A DNA stretch of 64,000 nt from Ylistrum balloti (lineage: Eukaryota). Made by a program: the position numbers. The stretch spans positions 1,364,001 through 1,428,000 of the forward strand of contig NW_026782188.1 in the NCBI RefSeq assembly GCF_031769215.1. Direction: 5' to 3'. Shown piece after piece: positions 1 through 30,000 of this stretch; position 1 is the stretch's first letter, and the number at the start of each line of letters is the position of its first letter.

Positions 1-3000
1 CATTCCCAAATGAAGTTTATTTATGAGACAGCACGAAAAACTAAGTGTATTTTCCAAACATCCTTATGCATTGACACTTCGCAAAAAGTACTGACTTTGT
101 AAACAATCTTCAAACGATGAATGTTTATTTATACCCATAGCTCATTCTGCCATCATTCCGTAATTGTTCATGTCTGTACATTTAGTGGAATTATTAATGA
201 AAATACCATCGAAGTGAGTGTTCTACTTCAGTATTACTTAAAACATGCCTCTTATTCATATCATCTATTAACAACACACATGGATTAAACAGGACTGTGC
301 ATACACGTTAACTAGAATAGGACATATGCATACACGCTGACTAAAACAGGACATCTGCAAACACGCTGACTAAAACAGGACACCCGCATTCACACTAATT
401 AAAGAGGACTTCTACAAGCGTGGTGACTACAATCAGACCTCTGTATACGCGGTGACTAAAACAGGACACCTACATACATACTGACTAAAACAGGACATCT
501 GCCTACACACTGACTAAAACAGGACACCTGTATACACACTGACTAAAACAGGACACCTGCATACACACTGAATAAAACAGGACAGCTGTATACACACTGA
601 CTAAAACAGAACATCTGTATACACACTGACTAAAACAGGACACCTGCATACATACTGACTAAAACAGGACACCTGCATACACACTGACTTAAACAGGACA
701 CCTGTATACACATTGACTAAAACAGAACATCTACATTCACACTGACTAAAACAGGAGACCTGCATACACACTGACTATAACGGAACATCTGTATACACAC
801 TGACTAAAACAGGAGACCTGCATACACACTGACTAAAACAGGACACCTGCATACGCGGTGAGTAAATCAGGACACCAGCATACACGTGGACTACGGCTGC
901 ATACCTACTTACTTTTGAACTAAATCTTGTGGACGCCTATTTTTATGAAAAGATTTAAGCTGTATACATACATACACGTGGTCAATTATTAATATTAAAC
1001 ACATGCAAACACTTGTTCTAAAACTTGACACTTGCACGGGACAAATCCATGCACATAGAACAAAACTAGACACCTCCATACACAAACACATAGACTATAG
1101 ATGGACAACTGTGTAATGTGGACTAGAGACACTTCCATACAAGTGGCCTAGAGATAGACGCTTCCATACAAGTGGGGTAGAGATGGACACTTGGACACCT
1201 CCATACATGTGGACTAGAGATAGACACATCCATACATGTGGACTAGAGATAGACACCTCCATACATGTGGACTAGCGATAGACACCTCCATACATGTGGA
1301 CTAGAGAGAGACACTTCCATACACATGGACTAGAGATGGACACCTCCATACATGTGGACTAGAGAGAGACACTTCCATACACATTAACTAGCGATAGACG
1401 CATCCATACATGTGGACTATAGATAGACACCTCCATACATGTGGACTAGAGATAGACACCTCCATACATGTGGACTATAGATAGACACCTCCATAAATGT
1501 GGACTAGAGATAGACTCCTCCATACACATGGACTAGAGATGGACACCTCCATACATGTGGACTAGAGAGAGACTCCTCCATAAATGTGGACTAGAGATGG
1601 AAACCTCCATACATGTGGACTAGAGATATACACCTCCATAAATGTGGACTAGAGATATACACCTCCATAAATGTGGACTAGAGATATACACCTCCATACA
1701 TGTGGACTAGAGATGGACACCTCCATACATGTGGACTAGAGATGGACACCTCCATACATGTGGACTAGAGATGGACTCCTCCATACATGTGGACTAGAGA
1801 TGGACACCTCCATACATGTGGACTAGAGATGGACACCTCCATACATGTGGACTAGAGATGGACACCTCCATACACGTGGACTAGAGATGGACACCTCCAT
1901 ACACGTGGACTAGAGATGGACACCTCCATACACATGGACTAGAGATGGACACCTCCATACATGTGGACTAGAGATGGACACCTCCATACATGTGGACTAG
2001 AGATGGACACCTCCATACATGTGGACTAGAGATGGACACCTCCATACATGTGGACTAGAGATGGACACCTCCATACACATGGACTAGAGATGGACACCTC
2101 CATACATGTGGACTAGAGATGGACACCTCCATACATGTGGACTAGAGATATACACCTCCATACATGTGGATGATGGACACCTCCATACACTGGACTAGAG
2201 ATGGACACCTCCATACATGTGGACTAGAGATGGACACCTCCATACATGTGGACTAGAGATGGACACCTCCATACACGTGGACTAGAGATGGACACCTCCA
2301 TACATGTGGACTAGAGATGGACACCTCCATACATGTGGACTAGAGATGGACACCTCCATACACGTGGGGTAGAGATGGACACCTCAATACATGTGGACTA
2401 GAGATAGACACCTCCATACATGTGGACTAGAGATGGACACCTCCATACATGTGGACTAGAGATGGACACCTCCATACATGTGGACTAGCGATAGACACCT
2501 CCATACATGTGGACTAAGATAGACACCTCCATACATGTGGACTAAGATAGACACCTCCATACATGTGGACTAAGATAGACATCTCCATACAAGTGGACTA
2601 GAGATGGACACCTCCATACATGTGGGGTAGCGATGGATTATTGCATGCGTGTGGATTACAGCTGAACGCGTTGCAAGATTAACATATAGTCACGAAAAGC
2701 ATATACAATTTCTAAAAACCGTCTCCTAGATTTCAAAATTCAGACTGTTTAATTTATTTTTTAGCTCTACTGTATCCATTTCTAAATGGGATTGATGCTT
2801 TCCACTGCTGTGTTGTGCTGTGCCATGCATAAGCTTTACATTAGGAAAACATGTCATTTTTAAAATTCTCCTCAGTCGCCACTAGGTTTCAAAACTTAAG
2901 TCTTCAAGATATCGTAGAAGTTCAAATCAAACGTATGGTAAAGTATATGTCATTATTTCGCTCTATGGTATGTTATCTTAAATTGTGTCTTTTGTACAAT

Positions 3001-27000: not shown

Positions 27001-30000
27001 TCCTACAGGTCCATTATCAGCACTTTTAGACTTTTGCTTATTGGAGAGAAGTTGTTTGTATATTTTAACATATTTAACCCCTGTGACCTAGAAAGTGGGT
27101 CAAGGTCTTTCATTTGAACAAACTTGGTAGCATGTCAACGATGCATCCTACAGGTCCATTATCAGCACTCTTGGACTTTTGCTTATTAAGAAGAAGTCGT
27201 TTGTATATTTTAATATATCTGACCCCTGTGACCTTGAAAGTGGGTCAAGGTCATTCATTTGAACAAACTTGGTAGCACTTCATCCCATCATCCTACAGGC
27301 CAAATATCAGCACTCTTAGACTTTTGCTTATTGAGAAGAAGTCGTTTGTATATTTTAACATATTTGACCCCTGTGACCTTGAAAGTAGGTCAAGGTCATT
27401 CATTTGGACAAACTGGGTAGCCCTTCATCCTAGTATGCTACAGACCCAATATCAGCATTATGAGCCCTTTGGTTGTTGAGAAGAAGTTGTTTGTATATTT
27501 AAACATATTTGACCCCTGTGACCTTGAAAGGGGGTCAAGGTCAATAATTTGAACAAACTTTGTAGGGCTCCATGCCAGCATGCTATGGGCCAAGTATTAG
27601 CCCTCTAGGCCTTCTAGTATTTGAGAAGTTTTTTGAATGAAAAGTTTACGGACGGCGCATGGCTGACGACGACGGACGAAGCACGATGGCTAAAGGTCAT
27701 CTCGACCCTTTGGGTCAGATGACCTAAAAACATACTGAATGTTCTCACATGACGGCATGACTAGAATACATACTGTATGTTCTCACATGACAAGAATACA
27801 TACTCTATGTTCTCACATGACTATAATACATACGGTATGGTCTCACATGACAGTATGACTAGAATACATACTGTATGTTCTCACATGACGGCATGACTAG
27901 AATACATACTGTATGGTCTCACATGACTATGATACATACTGTATGTTTTCACATGACAGTATGACTAGAATACATACTGTATGTTCTCACATGACAGTAT
28001 GACTAGAATACATACTGTATGTTCTCACATGACAGTATGACTAGAATACATACTGTATGTTCTCACATGACAGTATGACTAGAATACATACTGTATGTTC
28101 TCACACGACAGTATGACTAGAATACATACTGTATGGTCTCACATGACTATAATACATACTGTATGTTCTCACACGACAGTATGACTATAATACATACTGT
28201 AGATTCTCACACGACAGTATGACTAGAATACATACTGTAGGTTCTCACATGACAGTATGACTAGAATACATACTGTATGTTCTCACATGACTAGAATACA
28301 TACTGTATGTTCTCACATGACTAGAATACATACTGTATGTTCTCACATGACAGTATGACTAGAATACATACTGTATGGTCTCACATGACTATAATACATA
28401 CTGTATGTTCTCACATGACAGTATGACTAGAATACATACTGTATGGTCTCACATGACTATAATACATACTGTATGTTCTCACATGACAGTATGACTACAA
28501 TACATACTGTATGTTCTCACATGACTATAATACATACTGTATGTTCTCACATGACAGCATGACTATAATACATACTGTATGGTCTCACATGACTAGAATA
28601 CATACTGTATGTTCTCACATGACTAGAATACATACTGTATGTTCTCACATGACTAGAATACATACTGTATGTTCTCACATGACTAGAATACATACTGTAG
28701 ATTCTCACATGACAGTATGACTATAATACATACTGTACTGTAAGTAAATCAGATTGATTGTATTACTTGATGTGTATGTACCCCTTGGGAATTCTTACAT
28801 TCTAAAATATAATAATTGCCAGAACTATTAAAAAATTTGCGACCTAACGATTCTCTCATTCTTTTATCCCTTTGTCCAGCAACCAGTTCCTCATCCATTT
28901 CTTTTACTATTACACATGCTGCTGCTTCTTCTATGGACTGATAAACATGCCAGTTTATAGGCTATATAACAAATTGGACACCTACCTTGTATAGATTGGC
29001 TGGTGAATGGTGATGCCTTGTCCTCCACGGGTTGGTGAGCCAGCAGAATCCAGAATCTCTTCCAATATGCCTTTGGCTGCCAAAATAATGATAAACTTGT
29101 CTTACAACACATCAAAATGACATGATAACCATCACATTGAAAATTGTACAGAGAAACAGGACAGTATTATAACACTTTCTATTTCTTTATTCATAATGGA
29201 TAAACACTTGTGTTGGTTCCATTTTGATCATAAAATATTTTTGAGTCAGTTTTAACTATGTATGTCTTCTTTCTCCTGTATGTCCTATAACTGCTTGTTT
29301 TATATATAAACTACCGTGCACATTTGTTAACAAATGCTTAGAAAATATGCAAATTCACCCAATGTTCATTTCTAGAAGTACACATATTAGACACCTGTCA
29401 AATACTGAAAAAAACTGTCGTTGTGACAATGCAAATCAATCCTGATAGCCTATTTTATGTTTTGTCAGGTTTAAGGGAGGCAACTCTGATTCACGTTTTG
29501 CTTTAAAAATTGAAAAAAAGATTGTCATGTATAATTTAAAAACTGAAACAATATGTCAAGTATGACTATCATATCAAAGGATCAACATTAACACTGATAT
29601 CAACACTACAGTAGACTTTTACCAACACAGCTCTATAGTTTCTAAATACATGTAACAAAGAAATTCAACAACAGTCTATACCCATGTCCAGCTTTTTCTG
29701 CACAGTTATCATAAATATTTCATATAAGGCCAATTCATTTGGCTATTTGACACATGAGCCTGTATAACTAATCACACAATTTTCAATTCCAAAGTTTTCC
29801 CTGATCGAACACTGAACACTGGGAAACTTTCCCTGCAGCCTGTCTCACCTGTTTTAGAAGGTAGGCTGTTGATGCTGGAGCTTAGTATTTGTTTCTTGTA
29901 ATTCGTAGTGAATTTAAGACTGAGCAGTTTTCTGTAAGAGGGGCAAAATGCTCTGTGCAAATGTGCAAGCAATTCCTTATGTGTTTATTCAGTAAGTAAA

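What the first reader, a model, noticed from the sequence alone, without database searches (positions are those of the whole stretch)
1..28985. TALPID3 breaks off mid-protein; IRF2BP may sit on the same strand inside a >28-kb TALPID3 intron
Seen: the last TALPID3 exon (29076-28986) ends at a strong phase-2 donor (AG|GTAGG) after ~685 codons. I found no exon resembling the rest of TALPID3 between 28985 and 1. The nearby acceptors at 28937 and 28930 give a stop within a few codons and would need a ~50-nt intron. Established: vertebrate TALPID3 is ~1500 aa and its centrosome-targeting coiled coil follows this region. Inference: the gene continues beyond the left edge, so IRF2BP and its ~20-kb regulatory domain are nested on the same strand, a genomic-regulatory-block arrangement with TALPID3 as bystander. 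Alternatives are a truncated gene or a misjoin in the 22-28 kb satellites.
Basis: inference. Interest (0 to 1): 0.65.

Follow-up and report, generated by a model that had tools for sequence, protein, structure and literature searches.

The report
IRF2BP nested inside scallop TALPID3 intron
The window holds only the first third of a scallop cilia gene (TALPID3); its next intron is more than 29 kb long and carries an unrelated gene (IRF2BP) on the same strand, a layout that other molluscs, a starfish and fish seem to share.

Summary
Observation confirmed. On the minus strand, seven GT-AG exons (33701-28986; 685 codons plus 2 nt) match residues 1-684 of the 2080-aa Argopecten TALPID3. The last exon ends at AG|GTAGGT. 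Three searches (tblastn, permissive tblastn, a 2113-position bivalve profile against all six frames) find nothing of the remaining two thirds anywhere in the window. An intact single-exon IRF2BP (12215-10347) lies on the same strand.

Interpretation supported, mostly by comparison. In Mizuhopecten the N half of TALPID3, IRF2BP and the C half sit on one 318-kb scaffold in that accession order; Mactra shows the same. Argopecten, Mya, Pecten and Patiria have near-consecutive accessions. An Arapaima model fuses TALPID3 exons, up to the homologous exon, to IRF2BPL. Thirteen of 16 N-less models start just after this junction. The downstream exons of this genome lie outside the window and were not seen.

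New here: IRF2BP sits in about 20 kb of CpG-undepleted DNA (o/e 0.94), fenced by satellites. The TALPID3 exons and introns are strongly depleted (0.17-0.24).

The "regulatory block, TALPID3 as bystander" label is untested. A misjoin or a truncated gene is unlikely. This is a new member of a known kind (an ancient nested pair), of moderate interest.

The parts
32735..33701 (-). TALPID3 coding exon 1 (ATG at 33701; 967 nt, ends in phase 1)
   Evidence: tblastn with Argopecten P0266 residues 1-322, 74% identity, E 3e-122. Boundaries. Profile positions 1-350.
31694..31902 (-). TALPID3 exon 2 (209 nt)
   Evidence: tblastn with P0266 residues 329-391, 78% identity. Profile 353-397. Splice sites.
31329..31471 (-). 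TALPID3 exon 3 (143 nt)
   Evidence: Profile 435-486.
30980..31154 (-). TALPID3 exon 4 (175 nt)
   Evidence: Pfam PF15324 positions 23-82. Profile 484-550.
30417..30629 (-). TALPID3 exon 5 (213 nt; coiled-coil-like)
   Evidence: Pfam PF15324 at 32.7 bits, above the 27-bit cut-off, positions 81-158. Also.
30008..30266 (-). TALPID3 exon 6 (259 nt, ends in phase 1)
   Evidence: Pfam PF15324 positions 187-246. Also.
28986..29076 (-). TALPID3 exon 7, the last in the window (91 nt, ends in phase 2)
   Evidence: 27 of 31 residues identical to P0266 654-684. Profile 717-745, E 2e-4. Translation.
28980..28985 (-). 5' splice site GTAGGT of the long intron; read-through gives AGG TAG (R, stop)
1..28985 (-). 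Visible part of TALPID3 intron 7. It is at least 28,985 bp, whereas introns 1-6 are 150-931 bp.
   Evidence: No TALPID3 match for profile positions 746-2113. No Pfam family above its cut-off in 67 ORFs of at least 62 aa outside IRF2BP.
22460..26259 (.). 42-bp satellite, about 90 copies, with CpGs kept
26346..28737 (.). 38-bp satellite arrays (26346-26752, 27730-28737) around a 145-bp array (26844-27606); nearly free of CpG. The block ends 249 bp from the exon-7 donor.
10344..12215 (-). IRF2BP(L) coding sequence: one exon, 623 codons plus stop, same strand as TALPID3
   Evidence: Three IRF2BP Pfam domains, E 1.5e-62, 7.3e-34 and 2.3e-33. 94% identity to Mizuhopecten IRF2BP-like. Identical to database protein P0257.
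2638..22459 (.). CpG-undepleted domain around IRF2BP (19.8 kb; CpG o/e 0.94), bounded by satellites on both sides
   Evidence: Twenty 1-kb windows have median 0.97, against 26 windows elsewhere with median 0.27 (Mann-Whitney p 4.7e-8).
287..2637 (.). Two 29-bp satellite arrays (287-893, 1093-2637) at the left border of the domain

Best explanation
The window comes from a scallop (Pectinidae). It cuts through a very long intron of TALPID3, a gene of about 2080 codons.

Shown: exons 1-7 (codons 1-685) lie at 33701-28986 on the minus strand. The exon-7 donor is intact. Nothing of the remaining two thirds of the gene is in the window. An intact single-exon IRF2BP lies 16.8 kb downstream of that donor on the same strand.

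Inferred: TALPID3 transcription runs leftwards through the satellite block, through IRF2BP and past position 1 to exon 8. The whole stretch of more than 29 kb is spliced out. IRF2BP is a guest gene with its own promoter inside a host intron. The guest sits in about 20 kb of DNA that has kept its CpGs, read here as unmethylated in the germ line. The host exons and short introns are CpG-depleted, read as methylated gene body. So the guest domain seems shielded from the host's gene-body methylation.

The nesting is old. The same intron is where gene models break in other bivalves, gastropods, a starfish and two fishes. It probably persists because any rearrangement that removes the guest would cut an essential host gene. 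Shared regulatory DNA may add to this, but that was not tested.
For: 1. Exon anatomy and phase.
2. Absence of later exons, by three methods.
3. Orthologues continue. Argopecten P0266 is 2080 aa, and only its residues 1-684 match the window apart from one chance-level hit (E 0.33) inside the IRF2BP ORF. Pecten X2 runs on to profile position 1074.
4. Order N half, IRF2BP, C half by accession in Mizuhopecten (OWF51355 / 51357 / 51359, all on a contig of 318,491 bp) and in Mactra (KAL4237540 / 39 / 36; locus tags 002254 and 002250 for the halves).
5. Near-consecutive accessions of TALPID3 and IRF2BPL:
   - Argopecten: XP_069118021 and XP_069118022, then XP_069118023.
   - Mya: XP_052767111 and XP_052767112, then XP_052767114.
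   - Pecten: XP_033735933, then XP_033735936.
   - Patiria: XP_038047014, then XP_038047016.
   - Tegillarca: locus tags KUTeg_013191 and KUTeg_013195.

6. Both genes lie on a contig of the same length in 11 of 11 informative species.
7. Split models. Thirteen of 16 N-less models start at profile 752-837, and 4 of 7 C-less models end at 739-748. Exon 7 ends at 745.
8. The Arapaima model P0085 has TALPID3 Pfam positions 1-314, then IRF2BPL. BLASTP aligns it to P0266 up to residue 686. The Bagarius C-only model starts at Pfam position 318.
9. In the gar, talpid3 and irf2bpl lie between timm9 and dact1 (PMC4236578, passages read). TIM9-like exons lie next to TALPID3 here.
10. CpG landscape. In oyster, CpG o/e tracks measured methylation, and the introns of methylated genes are methylated (PMC3840415, passages).
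Against: - Exon 8 and later exons of this genome were not seen, and no RNA data were available.
- Accession or locus-tag order is only a proxy for map order, and it gives no strand.
- Solemya is discordant: its N-half and C-half models are 57 locus tags apart (ScPMuIL_014813 against 014756).
- Pinctada tags are not positional, so they say nothing.
- No C-terminal TALPID3 protein from a contig of 1,849,344 bp (the length tied to the window's own IRF2BP) appeared. That search covered only proteins of 743-2366 aa.
- The set of N-less models came from a query that starts near this junction, which biases the count in point 7.
- In bivalves the introns of methylated genes are usually methylated. An intron with 20 kb of undepleted CpG is therefore unexpected. 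Taken alone, it would fit transcription ending near exon 7.
Confidence: 0.85

Rival explanations
1. Assembly misjoin inside the 22.4-28.7 kb satellite block. On this reading TALPID3 exons 1-7 and the IRF2BP domain are not really neighbours, and the rest of TALPID3 lies on another piece of sequence.
For: Four satellite arrays fill 22460-28737 and start 249 bp after the exon-7 donor. Such arrays are prone to collapse and misassembly. The composition changes sharply within the block.
Against: The window has no N. The same neighbourhood is seen in independent assemblies: TALPID3 N half next to IRF2BP in Mizuhopecten and Mactra, and TALPID3 exons up to the homologous exon joined to IRF2BPL in Arapaima. 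A chance misjoin would not recreate it. The true length of the arrays may still be wrong.
Confidence: 0.04
2. The gene is truly truncated or split. On this reading a product of about 686 aa ends at the read-through stop (AGG TAG) or at a small nearby exon. The C-terminal two thirds is lost or is a separate transcription unit beyond IRF2BP.
For: Read-through gives an immediate stop. The RefSeq model of Mizuhopecten ends exactly there at 682 aa. Many annotations give separate N and C models. CpG depletion, the mark of a methylated gene body, stops near exon 7.
Against: Any phase-2 donor of the form AG|GTAG gives a stop on read-through, so that stop carries no information. The donor is a good consensus site, and all seven exons are open and 74-87% identical to orthologues. 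RefSeq models in Argopecten, Mya, Dreissena, Mercenaria, Mytilus and Crassostrea span the junction. The coiled coil that is essential for centrosomal localisation and function lies at human residues 531-571 and chicken residues 497-530 (PMC4641851, passages). By my rough mapping through Pfam positions (break at 314-318; Mobula Pfam 1 = residue 127) that is downstream of the break. An N-only protein would therefore lack it.
Confidence: 0.07
3. Genomic regulatory block: IRF2BP is the target gene, its enhancers fill the TALPID3 intron, and TALPID3 is a bystander held in place by them. It is an explanation for the conservation and does not compete with the nesting itself.
For: The linkage is kept across phyla. 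About 20 kb of CpG-undepleted, satellite-free DNA surrounds IRF2BP. Published blocks have enhancers of a regulator inside introns of a neighbour (PMC3514665, passages on isl2a-scaper and otx1b-ehbp1).
Against: No conserved non-coding element was tested, because no invertebrate genome DNA was on hand. The main text of PMC3514665 names none of KIAA0586, IRF2BP or TIMM9; its supplementary lists were closed. Per PMC4236578, tetrapods keep only Talpid3 between Timm9 and Dact1, while Latimeria and most teleosts keep only Irf2bpl there, so the pair can come apart. Nesting alone explains persistence: removing the guest would cut the host.
Confidence: 0.3

Closest known systems
Synapsin-TIMP nested pair (TIMP inside a synapsin intron, kept across metazoans; PMC2825198, passages read)
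   Same: A guest gene sits inside an intron of an unrelated host. The position within the host protein is conserved across phyla.
   Different: TIMP lies in reverse orientation and has five exons. Here the guest is on the same strand and has a single coding exon, so host transcription must pass the guest's promoter and poly(A) signals.
Vertebrate timm9 - talpid3 / irf2bpl - dact1 neighbourhood (PMC4236578, passages read)
   Same: The same three genes are neighbours: TIM9-like exons, TALPID3 and IRF2BP(L). The gar has talpid3 and irf2bpl between timm9 and dact1.
   Different: The passages I read list adjacency only and do not mention nesting. Tetrapods keep only Talpid3 at that spot. The scallop window shows no Dact (Pfam on 38 ORFs; the paper calls Dact chordate-specific) and has three TIM9-like copies.
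Genomic regulatory blocks with bystander genes (PMC3514665, passages; PMC2688929, listing only)
   Same: A transcriptional regulator and an unrelated, broadly needed gene stay linked across phyla. The regulator lies in a CpG-rich domain.
   Different: The defining arrays of conserved non-coding elements were not tested here, and the pair is broken in tetrapods.
Mosaic gene-body methylation of bivalves (PMC3840415, passages)
   Same: TALPID3 and the TIM9-like region show the low CpG o/e of methylated, broadly expressed genes. IRF2BP shows the high CpG o/e of regulated genes.
   Different: Here the two states lie inside one transcription unit, if the nesting holds. That paper reports that exons and introns of a gene share their state (R2 0.86).

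Membership tests
TALPID3 / KIAA0586 (Pfam PF15324) | Match to the family profile above its curated cut-off | tested here: met
   The exon-5 ORF scores 32.7 bits against a cut-off of 27. The exon-4 and exon-6 ORFs match neighbouring profile positions below the cut-off. Exons were scanned one by one.
TALPID3 / KIAA0586 (Pfam PF15324) | Colinear orthology with named TALPID3 proteins | tested here: met
   Seven colinear tblastn and profile hits cover residues 1-684 of Argopecten 'TALPID3 protein-like'.
TALPID3 / KIAA0586 (Pfam PF15324) | Presence of the essential centrosome-targeting coiled coil and the C-terminal two thirds | tested here: not met
   Profile positions 746-2113 are absent from the window. 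This is taken to lie beyond the left edge, so the window holds a partial gene and not a full member.
IRF2BP1 / IRF2BP2 / IRF2BPL | N-terminal zinc finger, middle domain and C-terminal C3HC4 RING in one protein | tested here: met
   PF11261, PF25457 and PF25454 all score far above their cut-offs. The protein is 94% identical to Mizuhopecten IRF2BP-like.
Nested (host-guest) gene pair | Host exons on both sides of the guest within one transcript | not testable with these tools
   Only the upstream host exons are in the window, and no eukaryotic genome DNA or RNA data were on hand. By proxy, IRF2BP lies between the two TALPID3 halves in accession order in Mizuhopecten and Mactra.
Nested (host-guest) gene pair | Guest complete, with no host coding sequence overlapping it | tested here: met
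   The ORF of 623 codons is intact. No TALPID3 match overlaps it at E<0.3; the best overlapping hits have E 0.33 and 0.60, which is chance level.
Genomic regulatory block | Array of conserved non-coding elements spanning the target and the bystander | not testable with these tools
   The DNA collections on hand hold bacteria, archaea, phages, plasmids and E. coli only.
Genomic regulatory block | Linkage of target and bystander kept across distant lineages | tested here: met
The linkage is broken in tetrapods.

The most novel reading that the evidence does not exclude
IRF2BP(L) has sat on the same strand in the homologous TALPID3 intron (after the exon that ends at Pfam position about 314) since before protostomes and deuterostomes split. 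In scallops the guest occupies a CpG-rich valley of about 20 kb, presumably unmethylated and fenced by satellite arrays, inside an otherwise methylated host gene. On this reading a guest domain can be insulated from its host's transcription-coupled gene-body methylation.
Probability: 0.45. Interest if true: 0.6.

Novelty: new member of a known kind. Interest (0 to 1): 0.4.

Why it matters
For annotation: this intron is where TALPID3 models break in many invertebrate and some fish genomes. Halves are filed as separate genes, and one model is fused to IRF2BPL. Knowing about the guest gene explains and corrects these errors.

For genome evolution: it adds a same-strand nested pair, together with the TIMM9 neighbour, that seems to predate the split of protostomes and deuterostomes and that tetrapods later undid.

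For epigenetics: it offers a compact test case. It asks whether a guest gene can keep an unmethylated domain inside a methylated, transcribed host intron in an animal with mosaic methylation.

Tried and rejected
- Rfam at gathering thresholds and ARAGORN on the whole window found nothing.
- Pfam on 67 ORFs of at least 62 aa in 1-28985 outside IRF2BP found no family above its cut-off. The few weak hits lie in satellite translations. So no hidden coding gene or transposon protein explains the intron.
- Pfam on 38 ORFs right of 33.8 kb found only one further Tim10/DDP-like ORF, at 21.0 bits against a 22.3-bit cut-off.
- A search for a C-terminal TALPID3 protein from the window's own assembly (contig length 1,849,344) found none among proteins of 743-2366 aa.
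- Poly(A) hexamers after exon 7: the nearest are at 27209 and 26840, inside the repeats. This gives no support for a short isoform ending close to exon 7.
- An AG at 12263-12262 would put exon 7 in frame with the IRF2BP ORF. The chance of that is one in three and there is no splice evidence, so a real fusion transcript is not claimed.
- Literature: no paper held IRF2BP with 'microsynten*' or IRF2BPL with 'genomic regulatory block'. The listed titles for IRF2BPL + KIAA0586 (3 papers) and IRF2BPL + nested + intron (6 papers) do not concern gene order; I saw listings only. Supplementary lists of microsyntenic pairs (PMC3514665) were closed and may hold the pair.
Every search was made exon by exon or with other species' database proteins.
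Full report
**What the window is**

The window has no N. Its proteins are closest to those of scallops. TALPID3 exon 1 is 76-79% identical to Pecten maximus and Mizuhopecten yessoensis. IRF2BP is 94% identical to Mizuhopecten. The window's IRF2BP is identical to database protein P0257, which is tied to a contig of 1,849,344 bp and listed without a name. I did not try to name that record.

**Check of the observation**

Seven coding exons of TALPID3 lie on the minus strand: 33701-32735, 31902-31694, 31471-31329, 31154-30980, 30629-30417, 30266-30008 and 29076-28986. 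All have GT-AG borders. They sum to 2057 nt, which is 685 codons plus two bases. Introns 1-6 measure 150-931 bp.

The last exon ends ...ACAAG|GTAGGT, with two bases of a codon left over. Read-through gives R and then TAG. The acceptors at 28937 and 28930 would need introns of 48 and 55 nt, and give a stop after 2 and 13 codons.

**The rest of the gene is not in the window**

- The full-length Argopecten irradians protein P0266 (2080 aa) matches the window with residues 1-684. Its one other hit at E<=1 (E 0.33) lies inside the IRF2BP ORF and is chance level. The C-only models of Mizuhopecten, Pinctada, Mactra, Patiria and Pecten give no hit at E<=1.
- A permissive tblastn with the C-terminal parts of the Pecten and Tegillarca proteins gives only noise. 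The best hit has E 0.46 and lies in exons already assigned.
- A profile of 14 full-length bivalve TALPID3 proteins (2113 positions) was run against all 3627 six-frame ORFs of at least 12 aa. It finds seven hits, all between 33752 and 28985 on the minus strand, covering positions 1-745. The next best hit has E 2.1.

So 65% of the profile is missing. The break is at one third of the scallop protein, not at the middle. All searches used single exon ORFs or other species' proteins.

**What lies in 1-28985**

- An intact single-exon IRF2BP (12215-10347, 623 codons, minus strand) with all three IRF2BP Pfam domains.
- Satellites at 287-2637 and at 22460-28737.
- No other recognisable coding sequence among 67 ORFs of at least 62 aa.
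- No Rfam family and no tRNA in the whole window.

**Does the gene go on? Evidence from other assemblies**

*Gene order by accession.* In Mizuhopecten, three GenBank proteins sit on a contig of 318,491 bp: OWF51355 (TALPID3, 688 aa, profile 1-748), OWF51357 (IRF2BP-like A) and OWF51359 (TALPID3, 1352 aa, profile 806-2109). In Mactra antiquata the order is KAL4237536 (C half, tag 002250), KAL4237539 (IRF2BP1) and KAL4237540 (N half, tag 002254). In both species IRF2BP lies between the two halves in accession order. That is the order the window shows as far as it reaches.

*Near-consecutive numbers.* TALPID3 and IRF2BPL carry near-consecutive accessions in Argopecten (XP_069118021 and 118022, then 118023), Mya (XP_052767111 and 767112, then 767114), Pecten (XP_033735933, then 735936) and the starfish Patiria (XP_038047014, then 047016). 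In Tegillarca the locus tags are four apart.

*Same contig.* The two genes sit on a contig of the same length in 11 of 11 species for which both lengths were returned: eight bivalves, Patiria, the nemertean Tubulanus and the hemichordate Ptychodera. Protopterus is capped at 2,000,000,000 and is uninformative.

*Where models break.* Exon 7 ends at profile position 745. Of 16 models that lack the N-terminus, 13 start at positions 752-837. They come from Mizuhopecten (two models), Pinctada, Solemya, Mactra, Saccostrea, Mya, four gastropods, Patiria and the catfish Bagarius. The other three start at 262, 643 and 1104. Of 7 models that lack the C-terminus, 4 end at 739-748; the others end at 700, 1074 and, for the fused fish model, 699. 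The set is biased, because many of these models were found with a query that begins near this junction.

*Fish.* The Arapaima gigas model P0085 carries TALPID3 Pfam positions 1-314, followed by a complete IRF2BPL. BLASTP aligns its TALPID3 part to the Argopecten protein up to residue 686, which is the end of exon 7. The Bagarius C-only model starts at Pfam position 318. A paper on Dact genes notes that in the gar talpid3 and irf2bpl lie between dact1 and timm9. It adds that tetrapods keep Talpid3 there, while Latimeria and most teleosts keep Irf2bpl there (PMC4236578, passages). The window also has TIM9-like exons next to TALPID3.

*Results against, or neutral.* The Solemya halves are 57 locus tags apart. 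Pinctada tags and accessions are not positional. No C-terminal model from a contig of 1,849,344 bp turned up among proteins of 743-2366 aa. Accession order gives no strand. The same-strand claim rests on the window itself and on the fish fusion model.

**A feature not in the finding: the CpG landscape**

| Region | CpG o/e |
|---|---|
| Unique DNA 2638-22459 (657 CpGs) | 0.94 |
| TALPID3 exons 1-7 | 0.24 |
| TALPID3 introns 1-6 | 0.17 |
| 33.7-57 kb, without one satellite | 0.37 |

GpC o/e, the control, is 0.8-1.0 in all four regions. Twenty 1-kb windows in 3-22 kb have a median of 0.97. Twenty-six windows in 29-47 and 49-56 kb have a median of 0.27 (Mann-Whitney p 4.7e-8).

The 42-bp satellite (22460-26259) has kept its two CpGs per unit. 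The 38-bp and 145-bp arrays have almost none. So the switch lies near 26.3 kb. The left border cannot be seen, because only 286 bp lie beyond the left satellites.

In oyster, CpG o/e falls with measured methylation (Spearman -0.616), exons and introns of a gene share their state (R2 0.86), and housekeeping genes are the methylated ones (PMC3840415, passages). I read the window accordingly: IRF2BP lies in a domain of about 20 kb that has long been unmethylated, next to a methylated TALPID3 body.

The landscape cuts both ways. It fits a regulated guest gene with its own domain. It is also what one would see if TALPID3 transcription stopped near exon 7.

**Mechanism**

Shown: the exon anatomy, the absence of later exons, the guest gene on the same strand, the CpG contrast, and the order in other assemblies.

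Inferred: TALPID3 is transcribed leftwards across the satellites and IRF2BP to exon 8 beyond the window, and the donor at 28985 pairs with an acceptor more than 29 kb away. IRF2BP uses its own promoter. Host polymerases must pass its poly(A) signals; candidate hexamers are listed. The arrangement persists because removing the guest by rearrangement would cut an essential host gene. Shared enhancers may add to this.

The essential coiled coil of TALPID3 lies at human residues 531-571 and chicken residues 497-530 (PMC4641851, passages). By my rough mapping through Pfam positions it falls after the break. That mapping is an inference. I used no human or chicken sequence.

**Rivals**

- A misjoin in the satellites is unlikely, because other assemblies show the same neighbours.
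- A truly truncated or split gene is unlikely, because the donor and all exons are intact and annotated models in several bivalves span the junction. Without RNA data it is not excluded.
- The read-through stop says nothing by itself. Any AG|GTAG donor in phase 2 gives one.
- The regulatory-block reading was not tested.

**Comparison and novelty**

The closest analogue is TIMP inside a synapsin intron, kept across metazoans but in reverse orientation (PMC2825198, passages). I found no paper that describes IRF2BP(L) as nested in TALPID3. The Dact paper records adjacency in fish. Supplementary lists of ancient microsyntenic pairs could not be opened.

Verdict: a new member of a known kind. It is ordinary as a gene cut by a window edge. 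It is of moderate interest for its age, its same-strand guest and the methylation contrast.

Noticed in passing
window 37385-38416 (+), 42961-42466 (-), 45797-46494 (+): There are three TIM9-like gene copies, each with two core exons: A at 37385-37489 and 38312-38416, B at 42961-42851 and 42576-42466, and C at 45797-45901 and 46411-46494. They are 46-66% identical to each other. The best solved-structure match is human TIM9 (2bsk_A). Copy A is head-to-head with TALPID3. TIMM9 is also the TALPID3 neighbour in vertebrates (PMC4236578).
   Followed up: partly
window 2638-26259 against 26346-57000: CpG o/e switches sharply within the satellite block, from about 0.94 around IRF2BP to 0.17-0.37 over TALPID3 and the TIM9-like region. 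The 42-bp satellite keeps its CpGs and the 38-bp and 145-bp arrays have almost none. Satellites therefore mark both visible edges of the CpG-rich domain.
   Followed up: partly
database proteins P0085 (Arapaima), P0004, P0263, P0129 and P0255 (Mizuhopecten), P0008 and P0279 (Mactra), P0007 and P0277 (Solemya), P0006 and P0273 (Pinctada), P0169 (Patiria): Public annotations split TALPID3 into an N model and a C model at this intron, or fuse the N part to IRF2BPL as in Arapaima. The 682-aa Mizuhopecten RefSeq protein is named 'uncharacterized' although it is the N third of TALPID3.
   Followed up: yes
window 48167-48840, 57017-59096, 61780-64000: Further long satellite arrays lie to the right of the genes, with periods of 26, 56 (or 167), and 21, 30 and 61 bp. 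They have strong strand skews, with GC skew from -0.46 to +0.51 in 2-kb windows. Long ORFs there are repeat translations with no Pfam match.
   Followed up: no
window 34000-35000 and 36000-37000: Two local rises of CpG o/e (0.84 and 0.69) lie between the TALPID3 start codon (33701) and TIM9-like copy A (37385). They may mark a shared divergent promoter region. A 145-bp tandem array lies at 36457-36977.
   Followed up: no
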